From Podarcis cretensis (taxonomy: Eukaryota): a DNA stretch of 64,000 nucleotides. Shown here in pieces: positions 27,000-55,800 of the stretch; the stretch's first letter is position 1; every line of letters starts with the position of its first letter. A program made the translations under genes and the position numbers. The DNA is taken from positions 57,846,001 to 57,910,000 of the forward strand of contig OX638154.1 in the NCBI GenBank assembly GCA_951804945.1. Reading direction: 5' to 3'. The notes beneath the pieces were generated by a model. It did no database searches. It worked only from the letters and a program-made list of their open reading frames with translations, and had not been told where the DNA came from.

Positions 27000-27640
27000 T
27001 ATTCTCAACATAAGAAGCACCTCTTGCAGCAAGTACAGCGTTATTCCCTTAACAGTACTGCACTGGAGGCTGTGTTTGTTGACCTTGAATGATCAGTGCC
27101 ACAAGTTCATGCAGCAACAGCCTTTTTGCTGGCTTCACACTTCCCCAGGGTACTTGCACTGCATCTTTTGGATCCATATGATGTGGCTTGGTTGGTTGGC
27201 ATCTGTTTTGGGAGACTGGAGGAGTGTGCCTTTGTGGATGAGGTCAAGCTGTTGGAAGGTTGCAGCACCTGCCGTGGCTGTAGAGACCAATGTGGGAAAG
27301 ACATGTTTTGTTGCAGCTGGGGAAGATGAAGGCATCCAGTTGTGCTGCTGCACGTGCACCATGGTGTTTCTTCTTTCTGCACTCCTCCCAGTGGTCATTT
27401 CTCCTCTGGTCACTGCTATGGATGCATGACTGCTTTGATCTGTTTCCTCTGATGTTGAGATGTTCACCAAAAGCAAGTCTAAAGAGAGATCACTTTGTTG
27501 GTAAGCTTCCATCATACTGCTTCTGCTTTGGGCCTTGAGGCATAAGTGTTTCAATGTTGTAATCTGCCCCCTGGGACCACAGGAGAAGTGGCAGTGGCAA
27601 AAGTCCCAGCTTGATAAGAAGCTATAGATTGTTGTGCATG
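27000..27640 (-). mobile_element. Degraded LINE-related repeat (possibly Vingi/Ingi-like)
   Basis: Minus frame SWDFCHCHFSCGPRGQITTLKHLCLK resembles a W..C.CG...QT..HL..C zinc knuckle; family assignment is weak. Confidence 0.3.
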
Positions 27641-27963
27641 TAAGCCTCTGGGGATGGTTTTTGTAAAGGAAAAAAGCAAATAACAGGCAAAAACCTTCAT
27701 AGTTTCCTCCTCTCTTTAAATTAAGGGTTAAATCGGATGTATGAAGGTTGCAACACAACATAGTGAGACTTGCTTCTATTTGGAGTACCATTTGGAAGCT
27801 GATGAAATCAGAATCTCAAACAATTGTCTGAATAAAACTGAGCAAACAAAATCCTAATGCTAAAAATAAGCAAAAGATCAATGTGTATTTTTCTGTATTC
27901 AGAATTTTTTTTACCCCTCATTATAGTAATTCATATATAGTATAGTAATTCATGTATAGTATA

Positions 27964-29410: not shown

Positions 29411-32299
29411 GGGCTCACACTCTCCCCAGTCACTACTTATGAGCTTAGTAAATATGGCATGAGTCACTAATCCTTTGCCATTGTATATAATGCATAAGTT
29501 AACATTTCGGGTGCAATCCTAGTATACACATACATGGGGCTTTCTTCTGAGTAGTAAAACAGCATAGGATTATGCTGTTACAGTAAAATTTATAATATTG
29601 AAGGGATGGTCATTCTTTCCTTTTGATGAGAGATGAAAAACTGTTATAGGGTGCATCTATTTGAAAGGTTTGTCGTCTAAATTTATATATTTTTATGAAA
29701 TGTATTTCTGTGATAGTCCCTCAAAGCCACAATTATGGAGCAGAACTCCTCTTCTGCTACATGAGTAAGCACAAGCTGACAGAATCTGTTCCAAAGCCAC
29801 CAATCTTTTGCAGCATATAAACTCCAGCTGGGGGATGCTGAGGAGATGAAGATCAGTGAAGAAAATACTGAAATGTGAGTCTTTTAAAAAGCATTAATTT
29901 AAAGGCCTGTTAAAATTTAAAAACCATTCTCATAATGGAAGGGAATGCTTAAGACATGCTTGGAGAAAGAGCAAAATGGCTTAACGAAGGCGATGATGCT
30001 ATTTCCCTCAAGATTACTACAAATTGCATCACTGTCCCAAGCTACTGTCTGTTAGTGAATGGTTTATTGTAGTGGGTTTCACCCTGCCCTTTAACGAGTT
30101 CCAAAAATATAGGCAAGCTAGTAGATATTTCTAGGAAGAAAACAATAATTATCAGTGCTTTAGTTTCCTAAGTTATTCATTCTAAATAAACTGTTGGGTT
30201 TGTGCTATTAGTATGCAGTCGCTGGTTGCCCACAGATCTACCCTCTCCCAGTTATGTATGGCTAGAAGAGTATGTCTGATCAGGATCCCTGAGGCAAATG
30301 GGACACACCCCAGATACAACAAGATCTATGGGGATCTATACCACCTGCTGTGTATAGACTGGTTAATAATGTGTCAGGTGTGTGAAGCAAAGCAAAGTCA
30401 CTTACCTGTAAAAATAAATCTTTTAATTCTCATATGTAGTTACATACCTAGCTGCTTCTTCCACCCCACTTCTTTGTCTCTTTGCACTATGATTTTCCCA
30501 ACCCCTCACATTAAAAGTTGTCAAATAACTATTTTCACTCCTCAACATGACCTAATGTAGGGGTGAGGAGTCTCTCGTGGATTTCAGTGGGACATATGTC
30601 TTAGGAATAGGACTTTCAAGGCTGAAATCCTAAACAAATTTACTAGTTTGGGGACTGTTTATTGGACTGGGGAGAGGGCTACATTCCCTTGTTGGCAAAT
30701 TTTGGCATGGTGGTGGTGGACGACATGCCAGTGGTGGGTAGGACCAGAAGGAAACATGGGCAGAGCAACAAATATGAAGTGTAGCTTTGTACAGTAAGCT
30801 AGTTCTTCTGTCTTCCATCCAGGCAAGCAAGAGGTATTATTGGAGTTCAAAAACACATTCTAGTCAAGCAAAAGCATTAAGCTGTCATGGAAAGAGTTGG
30901 TGGTGGCCTGAGGAAAGGGCATGTGTCTGGGAAAGGGGTGTGGCATGGGGAGAGCCCCCGAAGGGAAGACAGGCTTGGAGTGTTCCCCACCCTGTTCTAA
31001 AGACCGCTGAAATACTTGTCCATGCTCAAGTAACCACCTCCTTACTCAATTTCCTCCCTGGCACTTCCTATAATTACAGGATACTTCAGAAATAAACTTT
31101 TCCTCTTGCTGCTATGATTGTACCACTCCTCTATTGAATTCCATTATATGTCTTCCTATAATTATCTAAAATGAACCTTAACATGCCATTCCACTCAAAA
31201 TTACTCAACATTGATGACATATCCTTGAAGATCCTTTATCTGTCTTGGGTGAAAACCAGTGTGAGGTTGCCGTGCAATACATTTCTGTGTTTGGACCTAA
31301 CTAAAAGGGCTGATACGTTCAAACATTTACACACACACAGTATCATTTGATGATTGCAACATTGTGTGATGTGTATGCAATTGCACCATCTCAGAGTCGG
31401 ATCGCCCACCATGTCACAGATCGTTGCAATGCTTTTAAAGAGACTCAGTTTATTGTGAGCATCACAAGTGTGCTAAAATCAAATACAATACAAGGATATT
31501 TTATTGTACCACAAAATATAGCCTTGCAATACATTGCAGACAACCAACCAGATCCACAAGGATAGTATGTAATAATTTGATATGCATTATTTATTTACAA
31601 CATTTATACAGCGCTTTTCATAATGACTTCAAGGCAGTTTACCAAAATGTCAGCATATAAGCTAAACTTAAGTCATACGCAGCATGACTCACCTTTACAG
31701 TTCATCCATTAATTGCTTAGGATTTGCAGACAAATCTTATCTGTGTCCACTCCAGACAAGCTTACTTTAAGAATTAGATAGCAGACATCGAGTTGAAACT
31801 TTGCAGGATAACCTGATTATTTTGACCAGATATGCACCAAAAGGGGCCAAGGGATGATAAAGCACACACTGGCCGATCTCTTAGGAACAAAGGGACGCAA
31901 CGCAAAAATAAAAAAGGGGTTTGGGAAAAGCAAAGGGGTGCTTGCATGAGAGTTCAATCTGCATCAAGGAACAGGAATCCTGCATGAACTAACGTGCAGC
32001 ACATTATTCCGAACGTGAGCACACCGCGGCGCGCGCGCGTAGCTTACACGCGCAGAGATTTCCAGCTGCGTCCTTGCTTGCGACGGAAGGTTGACGCCTC
32101 CCCCTCCGTCTCTTTGCAATGTCCGAGTCCTCCCCTCTTAGGCGGCTGGCAAGCCAGTTGTTTGTCCTCCTCGCGCGCCGAGAGGGGTTTTCCCAAAGCA
32201 TCCAAATTGCCCTCTGGCGACTCCGCCTCCCAGAGGCTCGCGCGGCTGCTTGCTCCCTAGGCGGACGGTGCCTACCTAGCAAGCCTCGCCTGGGCTTCC

Positions 32300-32686
32300 G
32301 CTTGGAAACGGAGAAATAAACGAGGAGCGGCGGCAGCGGCTCCCTCCCCGCGGCGCCGCTCTACCACGCAGCCGCGCCTGAGGAGGCCGGCTAGGCTTCC
32401 CCGCTTGTGCCGCAGTGCCGTGCGCTGCCTCTGAGGCCAGCCAGGGGGCGCTGGTTGCCGGCAGCTGAGGCGGCCTCGGAGCGGGCGAGGGAGCCCAGCC
32501 AGCCAGGAGAGGAGGCAGCCCTCGCCGTCGGGAACAGGCGGGCAAGCGGGAGGCCGGGCAGGCGCCGCGCTGGCCTTCCTCGAGCTCGGGAAGAGGCCTG
32601 CCCGGGAGCCGAGCGAGGGGAGCCTCTCCGACATGCAGGCCCGGCGGCGCTCGCTGCTGCTGCTGCCGCCGCCGCCGCCTCCCGAG
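32300..32686 (+). other. ZFYVE9: ZFYVE9 leader exon 1 (5' end approximate)
   Basis: Ends at the consensus donor CCCGAG|gtgagt inside the CpG island; contains (GCT)4(GCC)5. Confidence 0.75.
32653..32679 (+). repeat. (GCT)4(GCC)5 trinucleotide run in ZFYVE9 leader exon 1
   Basis: Read directly from the sequence, just upstream of the exon 1 donor. Confidence 0.9.
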
Positions 32687-35600
32687 GTGAGTAAGCTGCT
32701 GGCCGCCTCCCGATTTAGCCGGTCTCCGTCGGGCCGCTAAGGCCGGGCATCCTCTCCCAGGCCCCTGTGGGGCGGCGTGAGAAGGGAGCCTCTCTTGGTG
32801 GAGGGTGGGGGGCTGCCCCACGGATCCTGAGGAGAGGAAGCTGAGGGAACCTTCCCCCAGGGAGGGTGGCCCGAAAGGGGCGAGAGGCGACATAACTGAG
32901 GGTCGGAGCGCGTTCCCCCACAGCACACCTTGGGTCAATTCCGCCGCCCCCCAACCTTAGGGGCGCGACTTTCCCTCCTTCCTACTAGGGACCATGAAAG
33001 CCTTGGGACCTTGAGAATAAAGAAGCAGGCGAAGAGCTTCTCGTCCCTCCTTATCCCTCGCCTTGTTTGTCTGGCTTGTCCTGATGGAGCGGCTTGGGGG
33101 GAAGAGAGCCCTGTTCCCTTCATGGCAACCGGGAAGCCTTCGGCGAGGAGTTCCTGGCTTCCCATTTAGAGCGCTTCCCACCCCTCTTAATATCTCAGGG
33201 GGCGAGCGAGAAGACGTGGCAGCCCCCCGCGCCTCCGCCCCAAACAAACGAGCGAGCAAGCCTTCTCCTACCGCTTCTGTTAATTAGTAGATTCCCCTCC
33301 CCCATACATCCAGCCCCCCCCCCCCACCGTAGAGCATATGCATCGCTTTTTCCCAGTCCTTGCTTGTTTTTGCAGTTGTGCATTCTTGCATCCCCTTTCT
33401 TTCCTGTCCTGCTGCTTTACAGGCAGCTCCCATTTGTTCGCAGCCCAAGTTTCTCATACTGGATCTGACGGGAATATTGCTGTCAAGGTGTCCTATTTTG
33501 TGCCCGAAGTACCTTCCTTTGCTCTGGCGTCGTTTGTTGCAGTCTGTTCACTATTTAAATAATTTGAAACGTGCCATAACTGCCGAACTAGAGCGCTTAT
33601 CAGGAGGCAAGGTTACTTTTAATTGTGTTTGTTGTTGCGCTCACTTAAGTGATACTCACCTTGGTGATAAAATTCAGGTATTTTTTAGTTCTGTGGATGT
33701 GGGTAAGTAGGTCCAGATGACTGGTTGCAATGGAGGGAATGCATATCTTGTAACATGAATAACTGGTGGGAGTTACCTTGATAAGTTTGAATGTTTAGGT
33801 ATTTTGCATATATGTAAACAAATAGTATTTTCATGTACTGAAATAGAAGTATATATGACAACAGAATATATTTATTAATATATTTAAACAAGGTGAAGTT
33901 CCACATGTAAAATGTCCACAAAACTTGAATGGTCTTGTGGTGTTAGTGCAGATTTTCATATATGAACCTGCTGCTATTTATTTGTGACTTAAGATGGATG
34001 CAAAATTTCAAACAGCCTGGTAGAGTGAGTAAGGGAAACATGGAGGTCACACTAAAGGTTATAAGGACAGCAGGTTGATTATTTTTAGCACATAGACATC
34101 TAGAAGGATAATATATTTATTATGTAAAATATCAAAATCTGAATATAGATGCATGAAAGTGGAGTGCTTATTTGGATTGTACTGAAAACTGTTAGGTTGT
34201 CTGAGCTTGGCCCAACATAGATAAAACTGCTTTTATTGATCAGCAACACAAAGATGCACATATGTGGTAGTGAATTAATGTTTGTTTCTCTGGTGTGGAT
34301 TTAATATCACATGCCTTATATCAGTATAATTTAATGGCCAGGATTTACTAAACTAAAAATGTAATTACACTTGATTAAACTTAGTACAGTAGACAAAAAA
34401 CTTTAGATTTTGATATCTGGTAAATGCTGGCACAATTAAGAGGGTTCTTCAGTGGCCCAGAGGTCCTTTAAATGTTGCTCAGCTGCACAGAAGCATTTCA
34501 TTAAAAAAGCAGTCCTCACTTGACCAAAATTTAAAGGGCCCCATAGAGATCTGATTTTTTAAAAGCAACTTTACTTCACTGATAATTGCAGCGTGTCTCA
34601 TGGCATCAAATCTAGGCTTTGGTTTAGTCTCATGCTTGAAATCTTACTGAAATTTATTTAAAGATTGTGAATGTCTAGGCTGTTTCTTTTTAAAAATGCA
34701 AAATATTTAATCCTTCCATAATCCATGCAGCTCTAAATCTAAGCAAATAAAATTTAACATATAACTTAGACAGGCTTTACATTATTTTAATAAATTAATT
34801 CTTAGTGCATAAGTAAAGGATGAACTATTCAGAGCAGATGCTTTTCAGCATGTATTCTAGCATTTATGTTCTCATTGTTCTTTTACATTTGAAAATGATA
34901 GTGTATATCTAGACCACTGGGCTCCTTAGATGAAAAATGTAAATGGATGCAGAAATATATGCTGAAGTCAACAGGCAAATAATATGCCTTACTAGAGCAG
35001 GATTGCTAACAGCTAAGAATTTTTAAGCCAACATCTAACTGTTTGGATAAAGTATAACTAACAATATTTATTTTGGAATAATATTTCAAAACAGGCTTGC
35101 AGGTAAATATTTAGGATTGGAATAGCAGAAACAGTGATAAAAAATGTATGTATCCCTGTAGTTGTGAATGGTCCTGTGCGAAGGGTTATGGAAGTACTTT
35201 AATCTACTTAAGCTGCGGTCTTAACACACACCTACAAGGAAATAAACCTAATTAAACATAGTGGGATTTACTTTTAGGTAAATATGCATAGAATTGCTTT
35301 GTTAGAGCTAGAAGGTTATAACTTGACTAATCTTCTTCATTTTAATAAGAGCATAAGAGCCTGCTGGATGTAGTCTAGCACCCTGTCTCATAGTGGTCAA
35401 CCAGATGCTCTAATGGAAGCCCATAAGCCATGTTAAAATTCTCAGTTTATACCACCTTTGTATAAGCAAAGTTATGGATATTAGGGCGCTATACTTTTTT
35501 CATGGTGCTGGTATTAAGTCAGTTTTTAAGCCACCAGCCCAAGCATGCTTAAGTTAGTAGTTTGTGGTTTAAAGTAAAAATAAACACAGTTTATTTGTTG

Positions 35601-38600
35601 TAAATATCCTTATCAAGTGGCTTGAAGGCAATTTTTACTCACACAGGAGACCAAGTGGCTATTTACAAGCCCTATACAAAGGTGTTGAAACAAGTCTCTA
35701 GTAATTTTGACTTCGTTTTGCTAAATGAAACCAGGTGCAAAGGTTTTTGGAGCATGTGGCCAAGAGTGAAATTGTGGAAACTGTTTGAAATGCTCAGTGA
35801 ACAGTAGTTGCCTAAACCTTTTAATTTATGTAAGAAGATGTGAAAGATGGAAGCAAACAGTGTTTCTCTGCCGATGGAAGGCATTTGTTATAGAACTAGA
35901 GGGCCGGCAATTCTTCCTCCCTGCCTTCTCCGCAAAATTTGCTGAGGTTTTGGGGAACCCCTTGGAGCAAATTTCTGGGGGTTTGCAGGAGGGAATTTAT
36001 TTCCTCCACCAATGAAGCAACAACAACTGAATTCTATTCAAAGTAATACAGTATTTAATTTTCTCCATCATTGTGTGTTTAGAAGGACAATAGGTAGCTG
36101 TCTTATAGAAGTCAGACCATTGGTCCACCAAGCTTAGTATTGCTGCTAATGGTGTCTCCAGGTAGGGCTGGAAAAGACTCCTGACTGAAACACTGGAGAG
36201 CCAATTCCCTAGAGCCAAGCTCTAGCAGCTATGTAGCTTAGGATGCAGGTTTAGCTGCTACTGAAGTAGAGTCATAGGGTGTGATTGATTATGATTACAT
36301 GTATGTTTATTTTAATTCCCAGTAAGTCTCTCTTCAAGATGACCAATCACAATAAGCATATGAGGAAAATAGTTGAGTCATAAGTACTGTGACCTATTTA
36401 TTTGTTTAAAGTATTTATTTCCTGCCCCTTCATTGTAAAAGCAGTGCTCAGGATATGAAAGAAACAAAACAAAATTGCATATTTTTATGCAAGCAAGATT
36501 GGGGAATATCACAGCAGGGTTGTGGGGTCAGTACAATAAAAGTGTGTGGAGTCAGTACAATAAACACATCCGTCCAACAGGCCAAACTTGCCCCAGAACA
36601 GTGTCTTCACTATGTACTAGACAATTATTTGGGTGAAACAAGCCTCCTTTGAGTAAGAACTTTCACAGCTTAGATGTGATCCCAAGAAGGTTGTCTTCCA
36701 CATCTCAACCAGGAACCTCTCTTCCACTGGTAGAACATAGAGAAGAATCTCTCCTGGAGATGTTAATGAGGACTGCTCTGATTGGAGGAGGCAGTCCTTT
36801 AGATTAAATAATAAATCTTTAGATAAAGGTAATTAACAGTAGCTGGAATTGTAAAGAAGTCTGCGCAAGTACGCTTTCCCAACGGAATATATATTGTATG
36901 TTTTTGATTAAACAAAAATAGCTTTTAAGAGCAAGACCCTAATTATATACAGACTTTGCAAGTTCCTGTCAATGGGACTTGCTTACCAGTACTTCAAAGA
37001 TTCAGTACTGGTAGGTTAAGCCTATTTTGAATAATGGGGAAATAATGGACTTTTGTAGAAAAAAGAATGCTTTGCTCTCAAACTCCTTAAAGGCATCTGG
37101 CCTCAGAAGGTCCGGCCTTTGTACTCTGTTTGTAGACATCTTTTTAGTAATAGCTGTGGAAATTGAGCTTCATTAAATGACCCATTTAATTTTTTTTAAA
37201 CCAAACCTTCACTGCCTCCATCTAATTAACTAAGAAGTTGAGTGGAAGGTTTGTTTTAGTTCAGTCTGTCAGCTCCTACAGTGAGATTGTACTGCTACTT
37301 TACAAATTATTTTTTTAAAAAACAGATTAGTTTATGTGCTGTGGAAAACAAAGCATGTATCCAGAAATGTAATAAAAGGCAGTGTGTGTTTTTGTCTTGG
37401 TGCAAATGTTAAGAAAGCTGGTCCATATGTCAGCTTCTTAGTGAGTGTACCTGAGGCAAGTACTCCTGCTGCAAATTTTGCATAGTGTGTATGTGGGGGG
37501 AGGATAATTCCTGTCTGGTTCACCTCATACAGTTATCTGTCACATTTGTTTCAGTTGAGAGGAACAGCTGGCCTAGAGGTGCTGTTTTTACTGCAACTGG
37601 TGCTTATAAACTAAAATAGGAGGTCCTATATATTTTTTGTGTTTGCATACTGTTGTGACTTCTTGGATAAGCATTGTTTACTTTTTGTGGTCCATTACTT
37701 TCAATTGCTTTAGTGCAGATCTAGGCCAGTACAAAAGAAGAAGGGTTAAATGCATGTCTCAAGCACAATAGCTTTTGTTTTGTCACTGGAGTGGCAGATG
37801 GGAAACCAGAATCTCTTACATTCCCGCATACATTGACTATGGGGGAGAGGCATTTACCATCAGATGATGATCTTAAAATTAGACTTCATTTGAGTCTGTG
37901 CTTCTTGAGTGTTCTGTAATAAAAAGCATGTTTATTGTATCAATGCACTCTTAAAATTTTATACAGATGATTACATTTTGAGCTAATGTATGCTGTAGAA
38001 TCATCTTCTAAATTGACTGAAATTCATATAAATATATGAAGTAAACCTATGAATTGGTTGTATTTTGCTTTATTGCACAGTATTCAAATACATCAATTTT
38101 CTAGATACGTTAAATGTCTCTTCTGGTATATAGCCTTTTTTGTTAGAACATCTGTAACTGTCAGAAACCGCTGTGTTGATCCCCCCCATAATATAGCAAA
38201 CATAGAAATCCGTAATGTTCCCTGTAAAAGGCAGATCAAAATACTGTACAAATCTCCTAATAGCTGTGCCTAGCTATGAATGACACTTCCTCGTTATAAG
38301 CACTTTCATATTTTCTGATTTCACTTTGCTGTGTCAAAATTTTGCTTTGAACTCACTCCTAGCTGTGTTCACCTAGCTGGCTGTACACTGTTTGGTATAC
38401 AATTACTATGTAGGATCAGTAGGATGAAAGCTTGTTTAGATGTTTAGTTGTCTTATGTTTGCAGTACTGTTCGCACCAACATTCAAAAATTCATAAGACT
38501 GAAGTTAATTATTCTGCATCTCCCAGTCCTTACATCGCTCCCTGTCCTCCTATTCATTCTGCTATTAAATTGAGAGTGAAGATGGCATAATGATTCTTTT

Positions 38601-38953
38601 GTGTTGTTTATCTCTTCACCTTGTTGTCATGCTGCCATGCCCTTTTGCTGGATATTCTGCATCCTTGGTGTACGTTGGCTCATGGGACTATTGGGTCATG
38701 AATAATCTTCATGAGAAGAAAAGTTTTATGTATATGCCTGCTGCACATTGAAACGCCAAAATAAGCCATTTCCCAGATAGCCTTTTAGTAAAATGTCTAC
38801 TCACCACAAAATATGCACACTACTCAACTTATCACCACTTTGGCATAACATCCATCACTCATTTTCCCTATATAATTGCAGTTTGCTCTACTCATGCTTA
38901 ACTCTGATCTAATTTCTCTCCACCTCTCCACGTTTGGTCTCCGTAATTATTGA

Positions 38954-39080
38954 TCATAGAATTGTAGAGTTGGAAGGGGTGACAAGGATCATCTAGTCCA
39001 ACCCCCTGCAATGCAGGAATATTTTGCCTAACATGGGGCTCAAACCCATGACCTTGAGAGTTTCATGTTCTACTTACTGA
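38954..39080 (-). mobile_element. tRNA-Lys-derived SINE with CR1-type tail
   Basis: Reverse strand: degenerate tRNA-Lys(CTT) head, then GGGGGTTGGACTAGATGATC...CCTTCCAACTCTACAATTCTATGA. Related pieces lie at about 180-225 and 50165-50240. Confidence 0.7.
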
Positions 39081-39150
39081 GGAAGGGAGAACAATGTTGA
39101 AAGTCTCTATTGATGATGGAACCAGGAATAGGAAAAAGCAACACAAAATA

Positions 39151-39318
39151 CCGTATTTTTCGCCCTATAGGACACACCGGCCCATAGGGCACACCTAGGT
39201 TTTTTGGGGGGAAATAAAGAAAAAAATTTTAGTTTCCCCCCCACGCTACTCAGTGCGCCCCAGGCTTCGGGGTGCAGGCTGCTATCCGCAAGCCTGGAGA
39301 GCCCGGAGGGAACTCCCA
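39151..39318. mobile_element. Truncated relative of the 61061-61648 MITE
   Basis: TA|CCGTATTTTTCGCCCTATAGGAC terminus, GGGGGGAAATAAAG segment and GCTGCTATCCGCA unit are shared; second terminus not found. Confidence 0.75.
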
Positions 39319-40469
39319 AATCACACACACACAAGTTTGGAGAGGGGCAGGCCAAACAGCGCACCGCCATCTCCCTGCTTTGCTCGCTTGCTCGCCTCTC
39401 TCCCCAGCGCCACAGTCCCTTCTCCTTGCACTGAGGGAGGCGGCAGACGTGCATCTTTGCCTCAGAGCTGCTCCCCCACTACCACCTTCTGCTCCCATCC
39501 CTGCTACTACCTCTTCTCCCATGCCCTCAGTTCTGTGGTCAGCTTTCCCGCAAGGTGGGAAAAACCGTGAAGCTAGTCAATGCTTCTCAATTCCTGTTAC
39601 TGTCTTCTGCATGTGTCTTCTGCATGTGCGTGTGTGTGCATGCATGCATGTGTTTGTCTGTCTCCCTGTGCTATGACTCTGAATATAGGGGTGGGGGTTC
39701 CCCCTCCAGGGTCTGTCTCTTCTGCTTTCCCTCTCTATTCCACCCCATTCAGAAACTGACACGAGGTTCCATCCTTATTTCAGGCATCGTTATATATCTG
39801 TATATCACAGCATTTAGCTGGTATATCACGATGGTGAAAACCAGATATCATCCAGCCCTAGGGAAAGAACAGTGTGTAGGAATGAAGTGATTAGGGCCCA
39901 TTCCCATTGACATAATTTCTTGTTTTATTGTAGTCGGTGAATACACACAGTGGTTCTGTGGTGTTGAAAATGTATTTTTTGTAGTGTGGTGGGCACATAC
40001 CCACAGCCTCGTGGTACATCGTCAGGAGAAGAAAAGACTAAGGAGTAAACCCTACACCTATCTGGAATGGAGTCTGTAAGATGATTGAATAATGTTTTGT
40101 ACACCTCCTTCTGGCAACTCCTGCAGCCAAGCTGGTACCAAACATATTGCTCTGCTTTCCTTAGCAAGGCTGAGAGGGGGTCTTGTTGTCTGGGCAGCCT
40201 AGGACCTGCCCAGACTTTTGCCCTGGAGAAGTCACTTGGATCTGCCATTTTTAAAATGTCTGCAGGCATCGAAGTATGCCAGTCAAATTGATACTCCTGT
40301 TCTGTATGATTATTTTCCATTACACATTACACATTTGTATTTATTTGGTTTTGGTATTTAATTTCTCATGTCACACTATTAATTTGAGTCAGAGAGGAGG
40401 GAAGGTACACTAACCAGAGGGACAGTCACCAGGTGGCTTAGTTGAATGCTTCTGTGGAAAGATGTACAC

Positions 40470-40650
40470 CAGGGGTGTCCAAGAGACTGCGATCTACTCC
40501 CACTATAAATAAACTGGCAGTGATCTACCCATTGGATTTGACCAGAGCTGTTGAGCTTTTTTGGGGGGAGAGATCAGAGTAGTTGAGCTTTTTTTAGGGA
40601 CAGAGGTCAGATCGACCGGTAGATCGTGATCGACCAGTTGGACGGGCCTG
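40470..40650. mobile_element. hAT-type non-autonomous element
   Basis: Termini CAGGGGTGTCCAA...TTGGACGGGCCTG; 8-bp TSD ATGTACAC/ATATACAC (1 mismatch); internal GATCTAC/GATCGAC repeats. Confidence 0.78.
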
Positions 40651-41514
40651 ATATACACAATCTAGCAACAAGGATACATTGAAGAGCTCAAGTTGCAGCC
40701 CTCATGTTTTGCCATCTTCTGCGTACTTGTAGCAAAAACGTATTCCTAGTTATTTCCTTAAGACTATTTCCTCCATACTTTGGTGTTAGTCTCCAGCTAG
40801 TCTGGTAAAACGTTAATCCTATCACAGAAAACTTGGTTTATTATAATAAGAAAGTAATGTTTCCTAATGAAAGTGAGAACCACTATAGATTAGGTGCTAT
40901 AAGGTGCCCAAATCTTTTATTACCTGAGATGAATAAGTACAAATTTCTATTGTAGGCATAAGCAAGTGTTACCAGTTAAGCTAGTGAGAAAATGGCAAGT
41001 CTTTTCAAGTTTGTATCTAGCAACTTATTGTGATGCCTTTGTAGTCTTAGGGCTTGGTTACTCTTCTAAAGTTGCTTTTGACTGTGTTTCAGGAAGCACA
41101 TTTACACAAGGATGCATGGCCTCATAAAGAAACTAGATGCAGTTCAGGACACTGATAATAAACTAGTTTAAGCCCATCTTACCTCCTGCCTCTTCATGAG
41201 ATCAGATGTGTGCTGTCTACACCTTATTTGGGAAAGGATAGTTGATAGTTCATCTGTGTAACTGCTGTGGAGATTTGGGAGCATGTGTTGGAGACAGGGA
41301 ATAATTGGTATCTATTTGGTGGGGGGCTTTCTTTGGTGGCCACTTAAATGTAGTGGAGTGAAGGTTGTGTTATCAAATTGTTTTTAATAGGTTTCAGAGG
41401 GGGAAAATCTTACCCTAACTTGGATTTCAAGATGAGGCAGGCTGAAAATAGCTAAACTACATACAACTAATAGCTGCTTTAGGAATTCTAATGTGGTGTT
41501 TGTTTCATTTTTAG

Positions 41515-41619
41515 GATCAAGCAGAATATACAGATTCAATTCAACTAGCTGATTGGGCAGTGTATATCATGGATAGACATTGGTTCATTCGTTTCTTTAT
41601 GCATGTGTAGGAGAAAAAG
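41515..41619 (+). other. ZFYVE9: ZFYVE9 leader exon 2 (105 nt, upstream of main start)
   Basis: Acceptor tttgtttcatttttag|GATC and donor AAAAAG|gtaaga are both strong; non-repetitive sequence lying between exon 1 and the ATG exon. Confidence 0.72.
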
Positions 41620-43430
41620 GTAAGAGGATGGCAAATGACAGTATACATCTGGAATATTTGAATTAAGAGAGCGCCTTTAAATTTGCGTCCTTGGTATGCT
41701 TCTTATATTGCAGTCCTAAACAGATCAGAAATTTATTTATTTATTGAGTTTCTGGCCTGCTGTTCCTTCTAGGGCAACAAACAACCAAGCAGGAAAACAT
41801 TTTTTTCACCCCAGAGCCTTCCACAATAAGAGTTATGAATCAGTCTAATTTCTAGTAATGTTTCTAGGGTGTTTTGTTTAAAGCAAGGACAAGGAAGCTG
41901 TGGCCCTCAATATATTGTTACTTTTATCATTGCTGGCCACAATAGTGTTCTGCAATAGAATCATTCATTTAAAAATTTAAAGTTTAGAGTTTCCTGTTTG
42001 TAAGAAAATTATTATGGGTGGCGACCGGTTTGGGCATGATTGCTGACGCGCTGGTCCTTTTGGACCCAGAAGAAGGTGGAGGGGTGGTGCACTTATATGT
42101 GCTATGCCGACGTACACAGCAGGTTAGAAGTGGATCGCCCACATGAAATGGTTGCCATCTGTACTGTAAATTTAACAACTTTTAGCTGTGCTTTTGCAGT
42201 AAATGGGTGCTGTGAATATTACATACGTACTAATCGGATTGTGAACTGAAGTGTATTTAAGGCCAAGTTTGCCTGCTTTTTCTTTAGACTTCTGGTTTTT
42301 TCCTTGAAACCTAGCTGTGGAATCAGGCACTGTCACTAAGTTCTTGATTTAATGTATTTTGGTTGCCTTCTCCAGCACAAATGTTTGTGGGATAGATTTG
42401 GGAGAAAGTTTTAGAAAGGTGCACATAACAAGCTAGCTTTTTTGTTTCATTTGTGAGGCTACATATATTGAATGACTGGGTTGTCTGGTTCATAGTCTGC
42501 ATGCAAGGCCTACAATTTTGCACACCAGCACAGACTTCTTCAATGTCTATTTGGATGGTGGCATTAAAAATTGCAGGCTTTGCTTCTGGTTAAATAATTG
42601 GTTGATCCCTTGACTGTGTGCAGGAACGGGTCAGTTGTGTGTACTACACTTTATCGTTACAGTGTTAATTTTAAAATTCTGTGTTCAGATTTCCTTCCCT
42701 ATATAATAAACACTGTTGTAAGATATTCAAATCTCTTTTAATTTCTATAAGGTCCTTGATCTTGAATAAGTCATATCAGTCACATTACATTTAAGACTTT
42801 AGTGTGAAATAGTATTACTTCCTTGGCTAATATGTTGGCTTGTTTTGAGTTGTTGTTCCAGTCCACCAGGATTATATGGTTGGCAAACCTTAGGCTAAAT
42901 GCTGTTTCCTGTCATGCATTAATCTAGGTTAGATACTGTAGATGCTGCAGATTCAAGAATTCAAAGCACAATAGACAAAATATTATTGAAGTAACAGGAG
43001 TCATCTTTTAAAATGTCCATTATATAATTTATTTGACTGAAATGGTCAAGAGCCCATACTATAGTAAAGCTCACAAGATAGTTTTGGACAAGTCAGTGAT
43101 TTTCAGTATAGCTTTGTTTCCTGTGGGGTTGTTAAATGTTCTGTGGAAAAGAAAGGAATATATATTTGTATAAAGTAAAGATTTCTGAACTGTCACATCT
43201 ACTCCTCTTTGCAATTATTGTTTCACCTCATCCATTCAAAACTTTTTTATGTAGAGATGGTTTATAAAGTTACTTGGCCATTGGGGAGTTACCAAGATGA
43301 TATATTTATTAGGTAACATCTCCCAATGCGTCCTTGTAGTTCAAATCTGTTATATGGATGAGAAACGACTGGTAGCATTCTTGGGTCAAGCATAGATATC
43401 GAGTTGTGTGTGTGGTCAGAAGACTGATTA

Positions 43431-43600
43431 CCATATTTTTCCGTGTATAAGATGCCCCCATGTATAAGACGCCTCCTATTTTTGGGGACTCCAAATTAAG
43501 GAAACACCCCTCAGCATTACCCATGTATAAGACAAGCCCCAATTTTAAACCTAATTTTTTGGTAAAAAAAACCCTAGTCTTATACACGGAAAAAATACAG
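43431..43600. mobile_element. Short mariner/Tigger-type MITE
   Basis: TA|CCATATTTTTCCGTGTATAAGA...TCTTATACACGGAAAAAATACAG|TA. Confidence 0.8.
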
Positions 43601-43694
43601 TATTTTTTCCTGATTTGATACTTTAGTCACTACTAATTGAAATCCTGCTGATTTCTGTCTGAGTTAGTAACTGGATGCAACCCTGAGCCTGAGT

Positions 43695-44215
43695 GCCCAG
43701 GTTTCTGCAGTGGCCAGGAGTGCATCTGCATAGCTAAAGCCAGTGTGCCAGCTGTGCCCATTTCTGGAGATATCTGATCTGCCCACAGTGACACACACCT
43801 TAGTTACATCCCATTTGGATTACTGTAACATGCTTTACATGGATCTGCCTTTGAAAAGTGCTAGAAAACTTTTAAAGGGCCCAAGGAGCTCCACTGGCTA
43901 CTGGTCTGTATCCGGGCACAATTCAAAGTGCTGGTTGTGACCTATAAAACCTTATACTGCTTAGGCCTAGGCTATCTAAAGGCCCAGGGTATTTTCCTAT
44001 ACAAACCTATCTGGGCTCTTGAGATGTTCGAGGTGGCCCTTCTCTCATTCCTGCCACGCTCACAGGCACCTTTTGTGAGAACGCCGGAGAGGCTACTCCC
44101 AGACTTTGGAACTCCCTTCCTGGTGAGCCTAGACTGAACTCTGTCCTTGTGGTCCTTCCTCTGGCAGGTGAAGATTGTTTTATTCCAGCAGGCCTTTGGG
44201 AGCTGATTGCTTTTA
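43695..44215 (+). mobile_element. L2-type LINE fragment
   Basis: Track ORFs read DLPTVTHTLVTSHLDYCNMLYMDLPLKS and VVTYKTLYCLGLGYLK, typical post-RT L2 motifs. Confidence 0.78.
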
Positions 44216-44890
44216 AGGAAAGGGTTTTTAATAGTGTTGTGCTGTTTTTACCGTCTGTATTTTAATAGATTTATTTTTTACATTGTTTTAATTCCATTGT
44301 TGTTTAATTACTTTTCAGCTATTGTTGATTATAACTTTTTAGCTTTCTGTGTTTTAGCTGTGCTTGTACAATCTGGACAAATCTAGTTTTTATTCTTTTG
44401 TCTATTTATTCCCCACCTTTCCCCCCAAAACCAGGGCTCAAGGCAGCTTACAAAAATTAAAACAACACTAGGCGATGCAGAAGGTGGGGTCTAGATTAGG
44501 ACTGATGCCACCGTGATGGCACTGGGGCTCGATGAAGATCCAGTAGATCCCGTGCTAGCTCAGTGCCCTTCCCCCTCTCCCACTAGAGCACACACACCTG
44601 ATCTGGTGGGTAGAATGGGGGAGCTCTGCTTTGGTAGAAGGAGTAGATACTAATGGAGGCTGGCAGTGTTAGGCAGTAAATTGGTTTCAGTAGTTGATAC
44701 ATATTAATTTTGTTTCAAAGTTATTAATAATTGCCATTGTGAAGCCCACTGAATGTGTTCATTTAGGAAGTCCTGCAATGTTTCATATTTTACATAGGAT
44801 CTTAGTTTTAATGGATACATAAAAGAATAGATTGGTACATTTTCTATCATCATGCCAGTCATCCTGCTGTCATTTAACCAAATTTATATA

Positions 44891-45131
44891 CAGTGGTACC
44901 TCGGTTTACAAACTTAATCCGTTCTGGAAGTCCGTTCTTAAACCGAAACCGTTCTTAAACCAAGGCGCGCTTTCCCTAATGAGGCCTCACATTGCCGTTG
45001 CCCTTCCACCGTTCGGATTCCATTCTTAGACAGAGGTAAAGTTTGCAAACCAGGACACTATTTCTGGTTTTGCGGAGTTTGTAAACTGAATCGTTCTTAA
45101 ACCAAACTGTTCTTAAACCAAGGTACCACTG
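44891..45131. mobile_element. Tc1/mariner-type MITE, sister family of 8971
   Basis: TA|CAGTGGTACCTCGGTTTA...TAAACCAAGGTACCACTG|TA. Confidence 0.85.
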
Positions 45132-46021
45132 TACTACTCAACTCAAACAAGAACTCTCTAAGTTGCTTACAAAAGACTTTTATTTCCAAAAGTTAGCTAA
45201 GAGTGTGATTCCAAGTGAGTTGTAGGTTGGGGTGTGAAGTGACAGATTGTATTCTATTTTTAATCCCATGTTGGCTAGCACTGGCAAGGTTGGAGGTGTA
45301 AGGACAGACTTGTCTTCTTCTTGGCTCCCAGGGAGCCTTTTCTTTTTTAAAAGAATCACCCCATTGGTTCTAATGGAGAGGGAAATTAGATATACCAGTT
45401 CCAGAGTGGCATGGACGCAGACCTGATCATGTCTCGGCCAGTCATACTCTGCCCTTGGAGTGCCTTGTTTCAGGGCCTAACATTGATTACTGCTAGTGAA
45501 AATAGAACTGTGCCTATGGAGCTTTCCCACATAACGTCCCCCCTCCCCATTGGAGACATCTTCACTGCCATCAGAGGGGCTCCTCCATGCAACCCTAACC
45601 CCTTCCATCCATTAGATCTGTGAGTTAGGTTTCCCCTTCCCGTCTTTAGAAAGAAAAGGAACAATATGATTTTATTAGGGTTTTAAAAAATAATAATAAT
45701 AATACTTGCAGCAAATAACTGATAAAACCAAAATAAATCCTTAAGTCCCTTCTTAGTCTAGAAGGCTTCTAATTTATTTGTATATCTGGCTGATATGGAC
45801 GAGGTATTAGGAATTAGAGGATCAATACAGTTTCATCATCACAGTTTTGTAATACTGGGAAATGCTTTTGATTTTATAGGAAATAGTCAAACTAGCTTAA
45901 ATTTTAAGCTTGGTAATAATCTCTAAATCTTATGATGGGACATTGGAATATTGCTAGAAGTTCATAACTGGCTGTCTGCTTGACAGGTTCAGACAAGGAG
46001 CTGGGTGGCATTTCCTGACAA

Positions 46022-46091
46022 ATGGAGAACTATTTCCAGGCAGAGGCTTTTAACCTTGATAAGGTTTTAGATGAATTTGAACAAAATGAAG
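46022..46091 (+). CDS. ZFYVE9: ZFYVE9 (SARA) first coding exon (exon begins 45987)
   Basis: MENYFQAEAFNLDKVLDEFEQNE-D is the SARA/endofin-type N-terminal helix; in-frame TGA two codons upstream; G|gtgagt donor. Confidence 0.96.
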
Positions 46092-50646: not shown

Positions 50647-50754
50647 TATTATGTATTTTTCCTTTGATATACAAACATTTGAACTTCTTGTGCAAAGTAT
50701 AAGTTACATATGCTAAATTTATTGCATATTGATTTAAGTTACTTATCTTTTCAG

Positions 50755-52832
50755 ATGAAGCTATTTCACCTGCTTTGTTGGATGCAAAGTGGAATAAGAT
50801 CCTAGATCCTCCTTCCCATCGGCTGTCTTTTAACCCAGCTCTGGCCAACGTGAATGAATCCACAATTCCTAATGAGTGTCCGCAAAAGTTGAAGTCATTC
50901 TCCCTGTCTGAGTTAGCCACTGCATCAACAGGAGGAGGAGATTGCTGTTCTAATGGAAAGAATCTTAATATAAGACAAGAAAGCCCAAACATGTGGATTG
51001 ATGATCAGGCAGCAACAGATGATCATCAGCTAGTTAAGAGAAATAGCAATCGAAATGCCCTGTACAATTTGATGGATGAAGAAGGAAGGAAAAAGAAACC
51101 AGAGGAAAAAAACGTTCTTGTAGTAGCAGTCATGCATAACTGTGACAAAAAAGGACTGCAAAGTGATTTGTTAGATTGTAGAAATTACAGCAATTCCCCC
51201 AGAATGGATACGGTTAGCTTTACACTGGATAATGAAACCCAACAAACTGATCACATTGATGTTACTGTAAACGGGTCCATTGAAAAAGATTCAGATACTG
51301 AAAAAGATGCAGTACAAGCAAACAGGCTACCTGCAGAAGAAGATTTTTTCAACCATTGTAGTGTTGCTGCTTCTGCCTGCTTATCCAGTGGATATTCTTC
51401 TCGGTTAAAGGAGAATGATAATTCAAATAAAGACCTTCATTTCTCAGAAACTGCAGCAGCAGGGATGAATGTAATTACATTGCAGAGGCCATTTGGCCCT
51501 AGTGTTAAAATACAGCAAAGCTGTGCGTCAGGTGAGGGTTTTGATACTGATGCTGTTGCTCAGCTGGAAACTAGAAACTGTTTACCTAGTTCACGTAATG
51601 GTGGTTTCTCCACAGAGGTTTCTGTTGCAGAACCAGCAGCCCAGCCATTTCAGTCAGGGATATGTGAGGTCTCTGCAACTTGTCAGCCAAATACGCTTGA
51701 AATTGGTAATCACGGTGAAAGTTCTGACGGACATTTGGCCTCTATGGATGTTGGTGCTGCTGACAACGAAGCTGACAAATATGAAAAAATACTCAGCTCA
51801 ACTGAATTGCTCAGCACGACAGTTTGTTTATCAGAATCTCAGGAGATGGCAAATGGGGAACTGACTAAAGAAAATCAGATCAGTAATGAGCAAACACCTG
51901 GGGAGGATGAAACACTGTTGCATACAGCAAAGCGGGAGGAAGCATGTAGTAGTAATGGAGATAGCAGCGATGGCATGACAGTAGCAAGTCAGGACTTAAA
52001 GGGAGCATATATGGATGAGTTTGAAGATTCCAGCCCCACTGATGTCATGAGTACATCGGCATCAAGTGCTCTGCTCAATTGTTGTGATTCCTATGGAATA
52101 CAGAACCCAATTCTTGCTCATATTCCAAAGACTTTACCCTCCAAGGAAGACTCAGTGACTGAGGAAAAGGAGATAGAGGAGAGCAAATCAGAATGTTACA
52201 ATAATGTTTATGAACAAAGAGGAAATGAGGCCACAGAGAGAAGTGGGCTCATTTTGAACTGCACTGGTGACCAAATAAAAAAAAAACATTTACATAATCT
52301 CTGCAGTCAGGTACCATCCGAAACAAGTCAAGCATCACCAAAACAAACAGCTAGTCTGCAACCTCTCAGTGTTCCTTTTGGTGGTGCCCGACCCAAACAG
52401 CCTACAAATCTTAAACTACAAATTCCAAAGCCATTATCGGACCATTTACAAAATGATCTGGTTCCCCCAAACTGTGGAGGAAACAGTAAAAACAAAAATG
52501 ATGTATCTGGAAAAGTAAAAGTAGGTGAAAACATAGCAAATGTATTTTCTGATGAAACATCACTGAGTGCATCAGTCACAGATATTGGCGGGGAGCATTC
52601 TGATGATTATAAGTCTGGGGTTTCTAGTAGTTCGTGCCTTGCAGCAGCTTCAGATAGTCCGGACAACGATCTTGGAGCTGGCCAGTTTGGAGTTCCTACA
52701 AGAAAGCCATTTACTACTTTGGGCGAAGTGGCTCCGGTCTGGGTTCCAGATTCTCAAGCACCAAACTGCATGAAATGTGAGGCCAGATTTACATTCACTA
52801 AAAGGCGACACCATTGCAGAGCCTGTGGAAAG
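50755..52832 (+). CDS. ZFYVE9: ZFYVE9 large exon (2078 nt; disordered region and first half of FYVE domain)
   Basis: Track ORF 50775..52868; acceptor ttttcag|AT; WVPD and [14 protein letters not shown] signatures; AAG|gtatg donor. Confidence 0.98.
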
Positions 52833-55800
52833 GTATGTTTATATTTAATGGAATATTTTCACAAATGATTGAAGCCACAGAATTGGGGGGATATTTTTGG
52901 TAAGCATTTTGTAGTTTTTAGCAAATTAAGGTTAGATATCTATTTATTTTAATGGCTACTGAAAATAACATGAGTGTTAAAGGTATTATTAATTGTTATT
53001 TTTGCGTCAAGCTAGAAAACAAGTACACACCCCAAATAAATAACTTCTTGAATCTTATGGGGTCCCCCCCAGCACACTTTGTGATTAAGTACAGGCAAAA
53101 GCAGAGCTGCAGCACTAGGTTTCTGGCAGCGGTGTTGTTGCTGCAGTTTACTGGGAGGTAGTGGAGCAAGGTGACAGAGAGGTCAGTGTGGTGTGGCTCA
53201 ACTGGCGGGAATGCCAGATTGGCTTTGCCAGTGTGGACGCACCACACCAACTTCTGTGATGCCTCATACCTTGGCTTCCTCCTCCTGATAAGTAGCAGCA
53301 GCAGCCCAGCTGATGGGAATCTAGGGTGCTGCTCTGCCCCACTGGGTAAAAAACTTTTCACTATAGGCTGCTTGCCGTGGTGAGTGTGGCATCACATTCT
53401 GGCAAGAGTAAGAAACAGCCAACCTTCACCCCAGCTTTCAAGCTGCGGGGTGGTCCATGATGAGAGGTTGGGAGGTGGTTTGGCAGCTGGTGAGTCCGGC
53501 CATGGAGACCAAATTGGCAACCCTTCTGCTGGCCTTTCCTGCTCCAGATCAGAAAGGGTGAAAGCAGAGGGAGGGGGAAAGAGGTGTCTTCAGGCAGTGG
53601 CTGTTTCCTGACTTGCCTTTTCCTTTTTAAGTAGAGTGTTGTATATCGTTCTCTAAAGGTGCTTGCCATACTTTCAAGCCGTTGTGGCAAACAGTAAGCA
53701 ATCTTTGCCCTGAATGTTTGATCAGCCAAAAATTAACTGATTTGCTTGTTATTTAATACATTTGTGGTATCACTATTACAATATAACACCACTCCAAATT
53801 CTTAGAAGACTCTAGGGTTGAGAGGGAATGTTGTGATAGCTAAAAATACATGATGTTGGTTATGGGTAAAGCACTTCTCTGTACAAGTGCTTCTTATATA
53901 GGTTGGACCATTTTACAAGTGGTTTTAGCACACATAAGTAGAAATAAGCCCACAAACATTATGTTCCCACAATATCTTTATATCCCACCTGCCTGCATGT
54001 AACTAATTCATTAGCAGATTTAGAGACGATGAAAAATATTTTCTGTCTGGTTGCCTGAAAGGAATGCTGACTTAGCATAAGTGACCAAACAAAAAGTCAT
54101 TTGTAAGCCTGGCTTTGTATCATGTTATCTGGTTTTCAGCTGAAAAAATACCAATATTTTGTTTTTTAAGTATTCCTGAGAAATGAGTAAATGTGTGGCA
54201 TTTAGGATTTCTGTGCTTTCATTTTAAATTGGATGTAAAATAAGCCTGATATCTTGGGGCCTTATAAAAATACAGACGAATATTGTTCTCAGCTAAGACA
54301 AGGTAAAGTAGAATTAAGTGAATAAAAGATCTGTAATCAGCACAGCTGTGCATGGTGCTGTAGAAATGGAATATCACAGTGTTTTATTTAGCAATTATAC
54401 ATTTTATTTATCAAAGAAAGCACAGGGGCTTTTTTTTCAGTGGGATTCCTGCTTGTAGTAAAACATTAGGCCTTTTTAAACCATTTAACTGTAATAGACA
54501 CCTCTTTCTTCCCATTTGAAACTTGTTTTACACTGAGAGCCCCTTCAGGCTGGTATTTTATCACAGGTTTATTCCGCAACGTATCCTTGGCACAATAGTG
54601 CAAAAGTGGTGGATTTATTTTGCTTAAATTTGTTCTGTGATGCTGCCCTAGTGCTACCTCATTATTGTTGAACGGAGGGGTGTGGTGCAACAAAATCAGA
54701 ACAATTGCAGTATAAAAAGTAACAGGGTTTCAACAGACAGTTACAGGATATGCACTGGTTGAAAATGAAGAAATGTGGCTGCCCCAAAACCTTTGCAGGT
54801 ACAAACAGTATTGAAAGTGGGATTGCATGTCACTGCCCTGATAGCACCACTGTAGTTTCTTGCTGTCTAAGAACGTCTCTCTCCCTTAATATTTCATGCT
54901 GATGCACAAATTGGTATAGGTAATAATCACTATAATACCCAACACTATGCTGATGTTTTCCTTTACATGAAGTATTTTGGCATTGCTTTATTTACAGTTC
55001 ATTTCCTCTGGGCAGCAGATTTTTCATTGACCTTGACCTTGATGAATAAGCATTACTGTATCCAGTGTGATACTTTTTCCTCCAGTGAATAAGTTACATA
55101 AGAACTTGCACCTTACTAAATTCAACTTTAGCAAAGATTGTCCTGAACATGGTTTAAAAAAAGATATAACAATTGATTTGGGGAGATCCTCTGTAGAGAT
55201 TAGGCCAGTTTGTATTTTTCTTTCTCCATGAGATAATGAGGGAAGAGACATCTTGCATACATGCTACAAGAATTTTCAGCAGTTAATCTAAAGCTTTCAT
55301 TTCTATAAAAGGATTATTGTTAAATATTTGGTTTGTTTAATGTAGTTGGAACATTTGGAATAGTAAATTATGAATGAAAAGTTAACATTTCATTTCCCAG
55401 CTTAGGGCACTGATTTTTTTAAAATAAATTTAAATTGCCATCCTAGTCTACTGTTGAGCTGAATTTTCCAGCAACAACCCCTCCATGAGTGTAGAAATAT
55501 AAAATATTGTATGTTTTTTTTGGAGTGTGGAAAATTTCATTCAAAGTTGAGTGGCTGTTTAATTTTTCATTAAATATATATTGTTAGATCACAGGAAGGA
55601 AAGAGTACAAGAACCTCATTAGAAATTGAAATGCTACCGTCTATGCAATATAAGGCAGTAACTAATAGGACAAAACCAGCCTTACTTCCTGAATTAAAAC
55701 CAGGAGCTATTTTTGGTGCATTTTGACTATGCTTGAGTATATTTGCTGTTTGATAAAGTTGAAGTAAAGCTTGGCTGCTATGAAACTGTAAATGTTGACT

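What the first reader, a model, noticed from the sequence alone, without database searches (positions are those of the whole stretch)
32633..41610. Spliced 49-aa upstream ORF with a Leu4-Pro6 run in the ZFYVE9/SARA leader
Seen: ATG at 32633 (gacATGc, purine at -3) reads MQARRRSLLLLPPPPPPE exactly to the phase-0 donor at 32686. It continues stop-free through the candidate exon at 41515 as DQAEYTDSIQLADWAVYIMDRHWFIRFFMHV-TAG (41608-41610), ending 44 spliced nt before the main ATG (46022). The ORF track cannot show it because it spans an 8.8-kb intron. Known: consecutive prolines stall ribosomes and need hypusinated eIF5A, and stalling uORFs act as metabolite sensors (for example AZIN1). Inference: a microprotein or eIF5A/polyamine-sensitive translational switch on a TGF-beta/Smad adaptor, tunable by the length of the (GCT)n(GCC)n repeat. 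From memory only and unverified, the human leader exon has a similarly placed ATG...GTG-stop just before its donor.
Basis: partly seen in the sequence, partly recalled or inferred. Interest (0 to 1): 0.72.

Follow-up and report, generated by a model that had tools for sequence, protein, structure and literature searches.

The report
Conserved upstream brake on ZFYVE9 translation
A short upstream reading frame in the leader of the TGF-beta adaptor gene ZFYVE9 has the same start, splice phase and stop here as in humans, where it is already catalogued as translated; it likely damps output of the main protein, but its proline run is absent in humans, so a conserved polyamine switch is unlikely.

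Summary
ATG 32633, donor 32687, exon 41515-41619, TAG 41608-41610 and the 44-nt gap to the ZFYVE9 start are as described. RNA shows the 41619-45987 joint and sense reads upstream of the ATG; the 32686-41515 joint itself was not seen.

The ORF is the ortholog of human Ribo-seq ORF c1riboseqorf100 (41 aa). Shared: exon-1 start, phase-0 junction, 31 ungapped exon-2 codons, an inner in-frame ATG (13-codon ORF, translated in human) and the stop position. The peptide is not detectably constrained (12/31 identical in exon 2, neutral P 0.11-0.25; PhyloCSF mammals -444). The Leu/Pro run is an 8-codon repeat block that human lacks, and the AZIN1 hallmarks are missing, so the eIF5A/polyamine switch is not supported.

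Most likely this is a conserved repressive uORF pair that throttles SARA. One new lead: a published autism-proband leader variant that roughly doubles reporter output is Arg4Gln of this uORF, in the shared RRR motif. It also breaks a predicted hairpin just 3' of the uAUG. The authors' table scores it as not affecting a uORF.

The parts
32000..32800 (.). CpG island / ZFYVE9 promoter and exon 1 region; exact TSS not mapped
   Evidence: GC 0.61-0.76, CpG o/e 0.74-1.18; RNA reads in both orientations at 32581
32633..32686 (+). uORF part 1 (18 codons), from uATG1 to the phase-0 donor
   Evidence: human counterpart has 10 codons, 7 identical (by hand)
32642..32650 (+). Arg-Arg-Arg, codons 4-6; shared with human, with synonymous differences at codons 5 and 6; codon 4 is the site of the human reporter variant; predicted 5' arm of a hairpin
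32654..32683 (+). CTG/CCG repeat read as Leu4-Pro6; 8 of these 10 codons have no human counterpart; predicted 3' arm of the hairpin
32687..41514 (+). intron 1 (8828 nt, GT..AG), repeat-rich; splicing at these exact ends inferred
   Evidence: human intron at the homologous place
41515..41619 (+). leader exon 2 (105 nt; human 106 nt by hand), single copy in the genome
   Evidence: RNA joint to exon 3 in 4 of 4 runs; 1 match in G000
41569..41571 (+). inner in-frame uATG2 (A at -3, G at +4): 13-codon ORF sharing the stop
   Evidence: human 13-aa counterpart translated, 540 P-sites, 78% in frame
41599..41605 (+). two further ATGs in weak context (41599 in frame, 3 codons; 41603 out of frame, 27 codons, overlaps the main start); not in the human leader
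41608..41610 (+). uORF stop TAG, codon 32 of exon 2 (TAA at the same codon in human), 9 nt before the donor
45987..46091 (+). exon 3 with the ZFYVE9 main ATG at 46022 (C at -3, G at +4, as in human)
50733..52868 (+). open frame holding the large ZFYVE9 coding exon, ending in the first half of the FYVE domain
   Evidence: PF01363, E 3e-12

Best explanation
This is a spliced upstream ORF of ZFYVE9 with two in-frame AUG starts and one stop, laid out as in human, and it likely represses the main ORF by capturing scanning ribosomes, with selection likely acting on its start, frame and stop rather than on its peptide. Shown: the anatomy here, the matching human anatomy, translation of both human ORFs. 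Inferred: ribosomes that start at uATG1 read 49 codons (41 in human) and stop 44 (46) nt before the main AUG, a length at which reinitiation is poor (general knowledge). SARA would then be made by ribosomes that leak past both uAUGs or reinitiate after the 13-codon inner ORF, onto a main AUG with C at -3 in both species. Inferred: capture at uATG1 is tuned by the GC-rich first codons, most simply as an RNA hairpin in which the CGG Arg codons pair with CCG Pro codons. On this reading the proline run is a lineage-specific repeat tolerated because it keeps the frame.
For: Human ortholog c1riboseqorf100, 'conserved', 1 MS study; inner ORF 'vertebrata', translated in human and rat. No gap in 32 exon-2 codons. 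Given 37 of 93 nt changed, neutral simulation keeps open frame, inner ATG and stop together in 1.6-1.9% of 40000 runs per kappa, without counting indels or uATG1. Peptide not above neutral: P(identity>=12/31) 0.11-0.25; changes by codon position 12/10/15, chi-square P 0.60; PhyloCSF mammals -443.81. This is the usual pattern: 45.8% of human uORFs show ORF-level constraint, 2.5% PhyloCSF>10 (PMC13275300 passages). A human G>A at nt 11 of the uORF raises NanoLuc by log2 1.08 (P 0.029, FDR 0.047), and the direction holds in the full-length leader with RNA unchanged, so the first codons bear on output. Here G+11 is paired with P 0.99 in a -26.7 kcal/mol hairpin at +5..+48; the authors list ddG +2 for the variant in the short construct.
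Against: No uATG knockout was seen in any paper, and no Ribo-seq exists here for this species. The exon 1-2 joint was not observed in this species. Only two species could be aligned, and the human comparison is by hand. The rodent counterparts of the inner ORF are 9 (mouse) and 8 (rat) aa, so start or stop has moved there. The hairpin is not beyond composition (z -1.17; 25 of 200 shuffles fold as well), begins closer to the AUG than the ~14 nt recalled as optimal, and ddG is only +0.4 in the second human construct. Nei-Gojobori omega ~0.42 (Fisher P 0.13; simulation P 0.04-0.26 by kappa) leaves weak peptide constraint open. The reporter used 4 wells per allele, and the MPRA measures for the variant were mostly null.
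Confidence: 0.6

Rival explanations
1. Sequence-dependent (conserved-peptide) uORF: the nascent peptide, in particular the N-terminal Arg triplet and the E|D-Q-x-E-x-T-x-S stretch at the junction, slows the ribosome and blocks scanning; the human Arg4Gln variant weakens it.
For: 7 of 10 human exon-1 codons keep their residue, 3 of them through synonymous change; omega ~0.42 in exon 2; the missense variant doubles output with RNA unchanged, is synonymous in the overlapping primate ORF c1riboseqorf99 (by hand), and acts in the short construct that lacks that ORF. 8 of 17 tested animal CPuORFs were sequence-dependent (PMC7530721 passages).
Against: PhyloCSF mammals -443.81; identity within the neutral range; the C-terminal 12 codons, where stalling peptides usually act, share only 2 residues; the 8-codon block moves the RRR motif relative to the stop; the variant also disrupts predicted pairing.
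Confidence: 0.2
2. One reading: the Pro6 run stalls ribosomes when hypusinated eIF5A is limiting, queues scanning subunits onto uATG1 and makes SARA output polyamine-sensitive; possible only in the lineage that has the run.
For: The run is there. Polyproline stalls are eIF5A-dependent, and pauses near a suboptimal start raise its use. A stall at codons 12-17 would place a queued subunit near uATG1 (inference from a ~30-nt footprint).
Against: Absent in human. The start is an AUG with -3 purine, leaving little range for queue-driven gain. No PPW at the C-terminus. The run is a CCG repeat in a CpG island, which reads as Pro in one of three frames. ZFYVE9 + eIF5A search gave 3 papers, none on this by title or abstract start (listing only).
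Confidence: 0.07
3. The uORF encodes a microprotein that acts in trans.
For: 1 MS study listed for the human ORF; PhyloCSF primates +9.58; a class-1 PDZ ligand motif is predicted at the human C-terminus and the last Val is shared.
Against: Mammalian PhyloCSF strongly negative; no Pfam match; no spliced relative among 1.84 billion representatives or 5.8 billion clusters, though such short spliced ORFs are rarely called.
Confidence: 0.06
4. Exon 2 is kept for reasons other than translation (splicing, RNA elements) and the ORF features ride along.
For: 60% nucleotide identity alone keeps each single feature with probability 0.2-0.37; rodents differ.
Against: Joint retention 1.6-1.9% before counting uATG1, phase and the absence of indels; both ORFs are translated in human.
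Confidence: 0.07

Closest known systems
Human ZFYVE9 uORF c1riboseqorf100 (GENCODE Ribo-seq ORF set; rows seen in the supplement of PMC10032668) and its nested 13-aa sORF
   Same: Host gene, exon-1 AUG with G at -3 and C at +4, phase-0 junction, 31 ungapped exon-2 codons, inner Ile-Met start, Val-stop position, 44 vs 46 nt to the main AUG, RRR and LL-E residues.
   Different: 49 vs 41 aa because of 8 extra Leu/Pro codons; 12 of 31 residues identical in exon 2; intron 8.8 vs 74 kb; human has an added primate ORF (c1riboseqorf99) whose upstream ATG has no counterpart in 32300-32632 here.
uORFs with constraint on ORF structure but not on peptide (ORBL class, PMC13275300)
   Same: Start, stop and open frame kept; negative PhyloCSF.
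   Different: The ORBL score for this ORF could not be seen; the comparison here reaches outside mammals.
AZIN1 uCC (polyamine / eIF5A ribosome-queuing uORF)
   Same: Inhibitory uORF of similar length (~50 codons) containing prolines.
   Different: AZIN1 starts at AUU and stalls at a C-terminal PPW; this one starts at AUG, has its prolines at codons 12-17 and in one lineage only.
Animal conserved-peptide uORFs (ESUCA CPuORFs, PMC7530721)
   Same: Position and length conserved over a wide range; partial residue conservation.
   Different: Ka/Ks not significantly low on two sequences; C-terminus poorly conserved; sequence dependence untested; their list could not be read.

Membership tests
Ortholog of human c1riboseqorf100 | Same gene and leader exon structure | tested here: met
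   ZFYVE9 start and FYVE domain; BTF3L4-type NAC exons upstream; exon sizes match
Ortholog of human c1riboseqorf100 | Start, junction phase, open frame and stop at homologous places | tested here: met
   By-hand codon alignment of the window with the human leader printed; coordinates
Ortholog of human c1riboseqorf100 | Exon 1 spliced to exon 2 in this species | tested here: inconclusive
   Acceptor use and donor rank fit; the joint is not among the rows shown
Ortholog of human c1riboseqorf100 | Translated in this species | not testable with these tools
   No Ribo-seq available; shown for human only
AZIN1-type polyamine/eIF5A uORF | Near-cognate start codon | tested here: not met
   AUG with G at -3 here and in human; feature
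AZIN1-type polyamine/eIF5A uORF | Conserved Pro stall motif (PPW) at the C-terminus | tested here: not met
   No Pro in exon 2 here; Pro run absent in human
AZIN1-type polyamine/eIF5A uORF | Output responds to polyamines or eIF5A | not testable with these tools
   Needs reporters
Conserved-peptide uORF (CPuORF) | Ka/Ks significantly below neutral | tested here: inconclusive
   omega ~0.42, Fisher P 0.13, simulation P 0.04-0.26 on two sequences; PhyloCSF mammals -443.81
Conserved-peptide uORF (CPuORF) | Repression depends on the amino-acid sequence | not testable with these tools
   One missense variant derepresses but also alters predicted RNA pairing
Protein-coding microprotein gene | Coding-type substitution pattern and peptide evidence | tested here: not met
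   Codon-position changes 12/10/15, P 0.60; PhyloCSF mammals negative, 1 MS study

The most novel reading that the evidence does not exclude
The ZFYVE9 uORF is a deeply conserved, sequence-dependent brake whose Arg triplet at codons 4-6 sets the dose of the Smad adaptor SARA; the de novo autism-proband variant chr1:52142384 G>A is a missense change of this uORF (Arg4Gln) that releases the brake about twofold, and the repeat-born proline run in this lineage is an added dial on the same element.
Probability: 0.18. Interest if true: 0.62.

Novelty: new member of a known kind. Interest (0 to 1): 0.36.

Why it matters
It carries a catalogued human uORF well outside mammals and shows which of its features last: start, frame, inner start, stop and an Arg triplet, but not the prolines. 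It also gives a concrete, cheap test: a published leader variant with an unexplained twofold gain sits in codon 4 of this uORF, so a handful of codon swaps would tell a nascent-peptide effect from an RNA hairpin. If it is the peptide, uORF missense variants, which current annotation ignores, can change the dose of a TGF-beta adaptor. If not, this is an ordinary conserved repressive uORF.

Tried and rejected
Protein searches with the exon-2 peptide: 3 hits among 1.84 billion. P0001 is a gene call on unspliced exon-2 DNA of a close relative with both TAGs read as Gln, so it says nothing on the stop; P0002 and P0003 are repeat-protein chance hits. The 5.8-billion search gave only P0001. The metagenome scan gave 1 of 76 candidates, a 10-residue match taken as chance. 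No Rfam match in 31500-46500, no Pfam match for the peptide.

Paralog: 60 kb upstream of the ZFYVE16-like gene (G000:C11) holds no counterpart of exon 2 (protein score 36 vs null 30-44; DNA 46 vs null 34.5-49.5).

Run search: no RNA holder listed on record; runs were laid instead. A second laying of reads gave no result, which leaves the exon 1-2 joint and repeat-length variation open.

A cryptic splice acceptor created by the human variant (new CAG) was considered and rated low: the methods describe a CMV-driven reporter with no intron upstream of the insert, RNA unchanged; not excluded.

Literature: ZFYVE9+uORF and ZFYVE9+'upstream open reading' each gave 1 paper; 'c1riboseqorf100' 0; two searches listed nothing on this leader besides that paper. 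Supplements: PMC4568590, 9 of 16 files searched, 0 hits; PMC10690280, 1 file, 0 hits; those of PMC7530721 and PMC13275300 could not be seen and may list this ORF with Ka/Ks, ORBL and peptide data. PMC9757701 and PMC5916843 are not held. Earlier findings of the scan: none.
Full report
Observation. The coordinates are right. ATG 32633 reads 18 codons to a phase-0 GT at 32687; exon 41515-41619 is open for 31 codons to TAG 41608-41610; 44 spliced nt follow to the main ATG 46022; the ORF is 49 aa. The gene is ZFYVE9 (start peptide against the human text; FYVE domain), with NAC-domain exons of a BTF3L4-type gene upstream (the gene name is recalled). The genome is 1.5 Gb in 51 contigs: a non-mammalian vertebrate, probably a lizard (inferred from size and repeats, not tested). 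The three donors rank 1-3 of 835 GT sites.

Transcription. In one search all 4 runs show the GT..AG joint 41619-45987. Joint reads lie on the first-mate-minus side (3 of 3 in X24, 5 of 5 in X22), which fixes the sense orientation; reads of that orientation cover 32581 (5 and 3), so transcripts begin upstream of the uATG. Two RNA-like contigs leave the genome exactly at 41513. The exon 1-2 joint is not among the rows shown: 19 rows were hidden and rows at the repeat 32642-32689 are dropped. It remains inferred. The runs carry a species label shared with the best holders and differ from the window at 32581, so they may be a close relative.

Chance. On the window alone the ORF is unremarkable: 12% of shuffles of exon 2 are open as long in this phase.

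The human ortholog. The supplement of PMC12859497 prints the human leader. The supplement of PMC10032668 lists ZFYVE9 uORF c1riboseqorf100: 41 aa, 30 nt in exon 1 plus 96 nt in exon 2, 'conserved', 1 MS study, PhyloCSF +9.58 in primates and -443.81 in mammals. It also lists a nested 13-aa ORF from the inner ATG: 540 P-sites, 78% in frame, class 'vertebrata', 9 aa in mouse, 8 aa in rat with rat P-sites. By hand, exon 2 aligns without a gap: 12 of 31 residues identical, 37 of 93 nt different (12/10/15 by codon position), Ile-Met inner start and Val-stop at the same codons. In exon 1, 7 of the 10 human residues are identical (Met, RRR, LL, Glu); the window has 8 more codons, two Leu and all six Pro. 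Both uATG1 contexts are G-3/C+4, both inner ATGs have A-3, both main ATGs C-3/G+4.

What is selected. Neutral simulation from the window exon to the same divergence keeps open frame, inner ATG and stop together in 1.6-1.9% of runs (4 kappa values, 40000 each), before counting uATG1, phase and the lack of indels. Residue identity (P 0.11-0.25) and synonymous excess (omega ~0.42, P 0.04-0.26; Fisher 0.13) are not clearly above neutral (the observed values are hand counts). This is the common pattern in human uORFs: 1335 of 2915 with ORF-level constraint, 74 with PhyloCSF>10 (PMC13275300). The rodent lengths show that the layout is not fixed everywhere.

The proline idea. AZIN1 control needs an AUU start and a C-terminal PPW stall (PMC9082881). 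Here the start is AUG, exon 2 has no proline, and the run at codons 12-17 is a CCG repeat that human lacks. With two species the direction of change cannot be told. A lineage-limited eIF5A effect is not excluded but nothing supports it.

A functional lead. PMC12859497 tested a de novo proband variant chr1:52142384 G>A. It is nt 11 of c1riboseqorf100, codon 4 CGG to CAG, Arg to Gln, the first Arg of the shared triplet, and synonymous in the overlapping primate ORF (by hand). NanoLuc rose by log2 1.08 (P 0.029, FDR 0.047, 4 wells per allele). The text says full-length leaders reversed direction only for SMC5 and NSD2 and that RNA never changed; the '**' for ZFYVE9 is read from the order of machine-read figure text. 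The authors' columns give no change of uORF count and no uAUG-context change, and the 2 main-text mentions do not link the variant to a uORF. MPRA measures were mostly null; 40S/total was -0.22, q 0.026. Two readings fit. Peptide: the Arg cluster matters. RNA: here the Arg codons pair with the Pro codons in a -26.7 kcal/mol hairpin at +5..+48, G+11 paired at 0.99, and in human a 5-bp stem with G+11 paired to the Pro-7 codon can be drawn by hand, with ddG +2 and +0.4 listed for the two constructs. The hairpin is not stronger than shuffles (z -1.17), though stronger than 99% of GC3-biased synonymous recodings.

Mechanism committed to. Two in-frame uAUGs capture scanning ribosomes; the long ORF is unlikely to allow reinitiation (general knowledge), the short one may; SARA is made by leak-through and reinitiation; the first codons tune capture, more likely as RNA structure than as peptide. 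Shown: anatomy, orthology, human translation, one variant effect. Inferred: repression by the uAUGs, translation in this species, the tuning mechanism.

Papers seen. PMC12859497: passages, sections 14 and 45, supplement rows. PMC10032668: passages, supplement rows (ZFYVE9 absent from main text). PMC7530721, PMC13275300, PMC9082881, 10.1101/710061: passages only. PMC4568590 and PMC10690280: supplement searches only. The supplements of PMC7530721 and PMC13275300 were not seen and may already classify this ORF. No paper on this uORF's function was found, in a library that lacks most subscription journals.

Verdict. Real, orthologous to a catalogued human uORF, a new member of a known kind. Interest 0.36, carried by the depth of conservation and the testable Arg4Gln link.

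Noticed in passing
window 31900-32861: RNA reads opposite to the ZFYVE9 orientation overlap exon 1 (at 32581: 4 of 9 reads in X24, 14 of 17 in X22). No Pfam match in the minus-strand frames scanned between 24 and 32.4 kb; a minus-strand donor-like site lies at 31695. Likely a divergent or antisense non-coding transcript.
   Followed up: partly
window 32633-32686 joined to 45987: If exon 2 were skipped, uATG1 would read a 45-codon out-of-frame ORF that overlaps the main ATG, so skipping would also be repressive here; in human the skipped form stops at once (by hand). No skipping joint was seen.
   Followed up: partly
window 46019-46025: The main ZFYVE9 ATG has C at -3 in both this species and human, while the uATGs have purines at -3: a layout that could make output sensitive to start-codon stringency.
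   Followed up: no
window 4099-4491 (-), 10000-11100, 15211-15567 and 18045-18329 (+): A second GC-rich island near 10.5 kb, NAC-domain exons on + and a minus-strand frame resembling TXNDC12 (recalled): the neighbourhood matches the recalled human order TXNDC12, BTF3L4, ZFYVE9.
   Followed up: partly
window 27135-27815 (-): A 226-codon stop-free frame between the NAC gene and ZFYVE9 with no Pfam match.
   Followed up: partly
window 38950-39220, 40100-40600, 43430-43950, 44890-45110: High-copy interspersed repeats in introns 1 and 2 that draw most of the laid reads.
   Followed up: no
P0001: A public gene call made with TAG read as Gln on vertebrate intron-exon DNA; an artefact that can pass for stop-codon loss.
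   Followed up: yes
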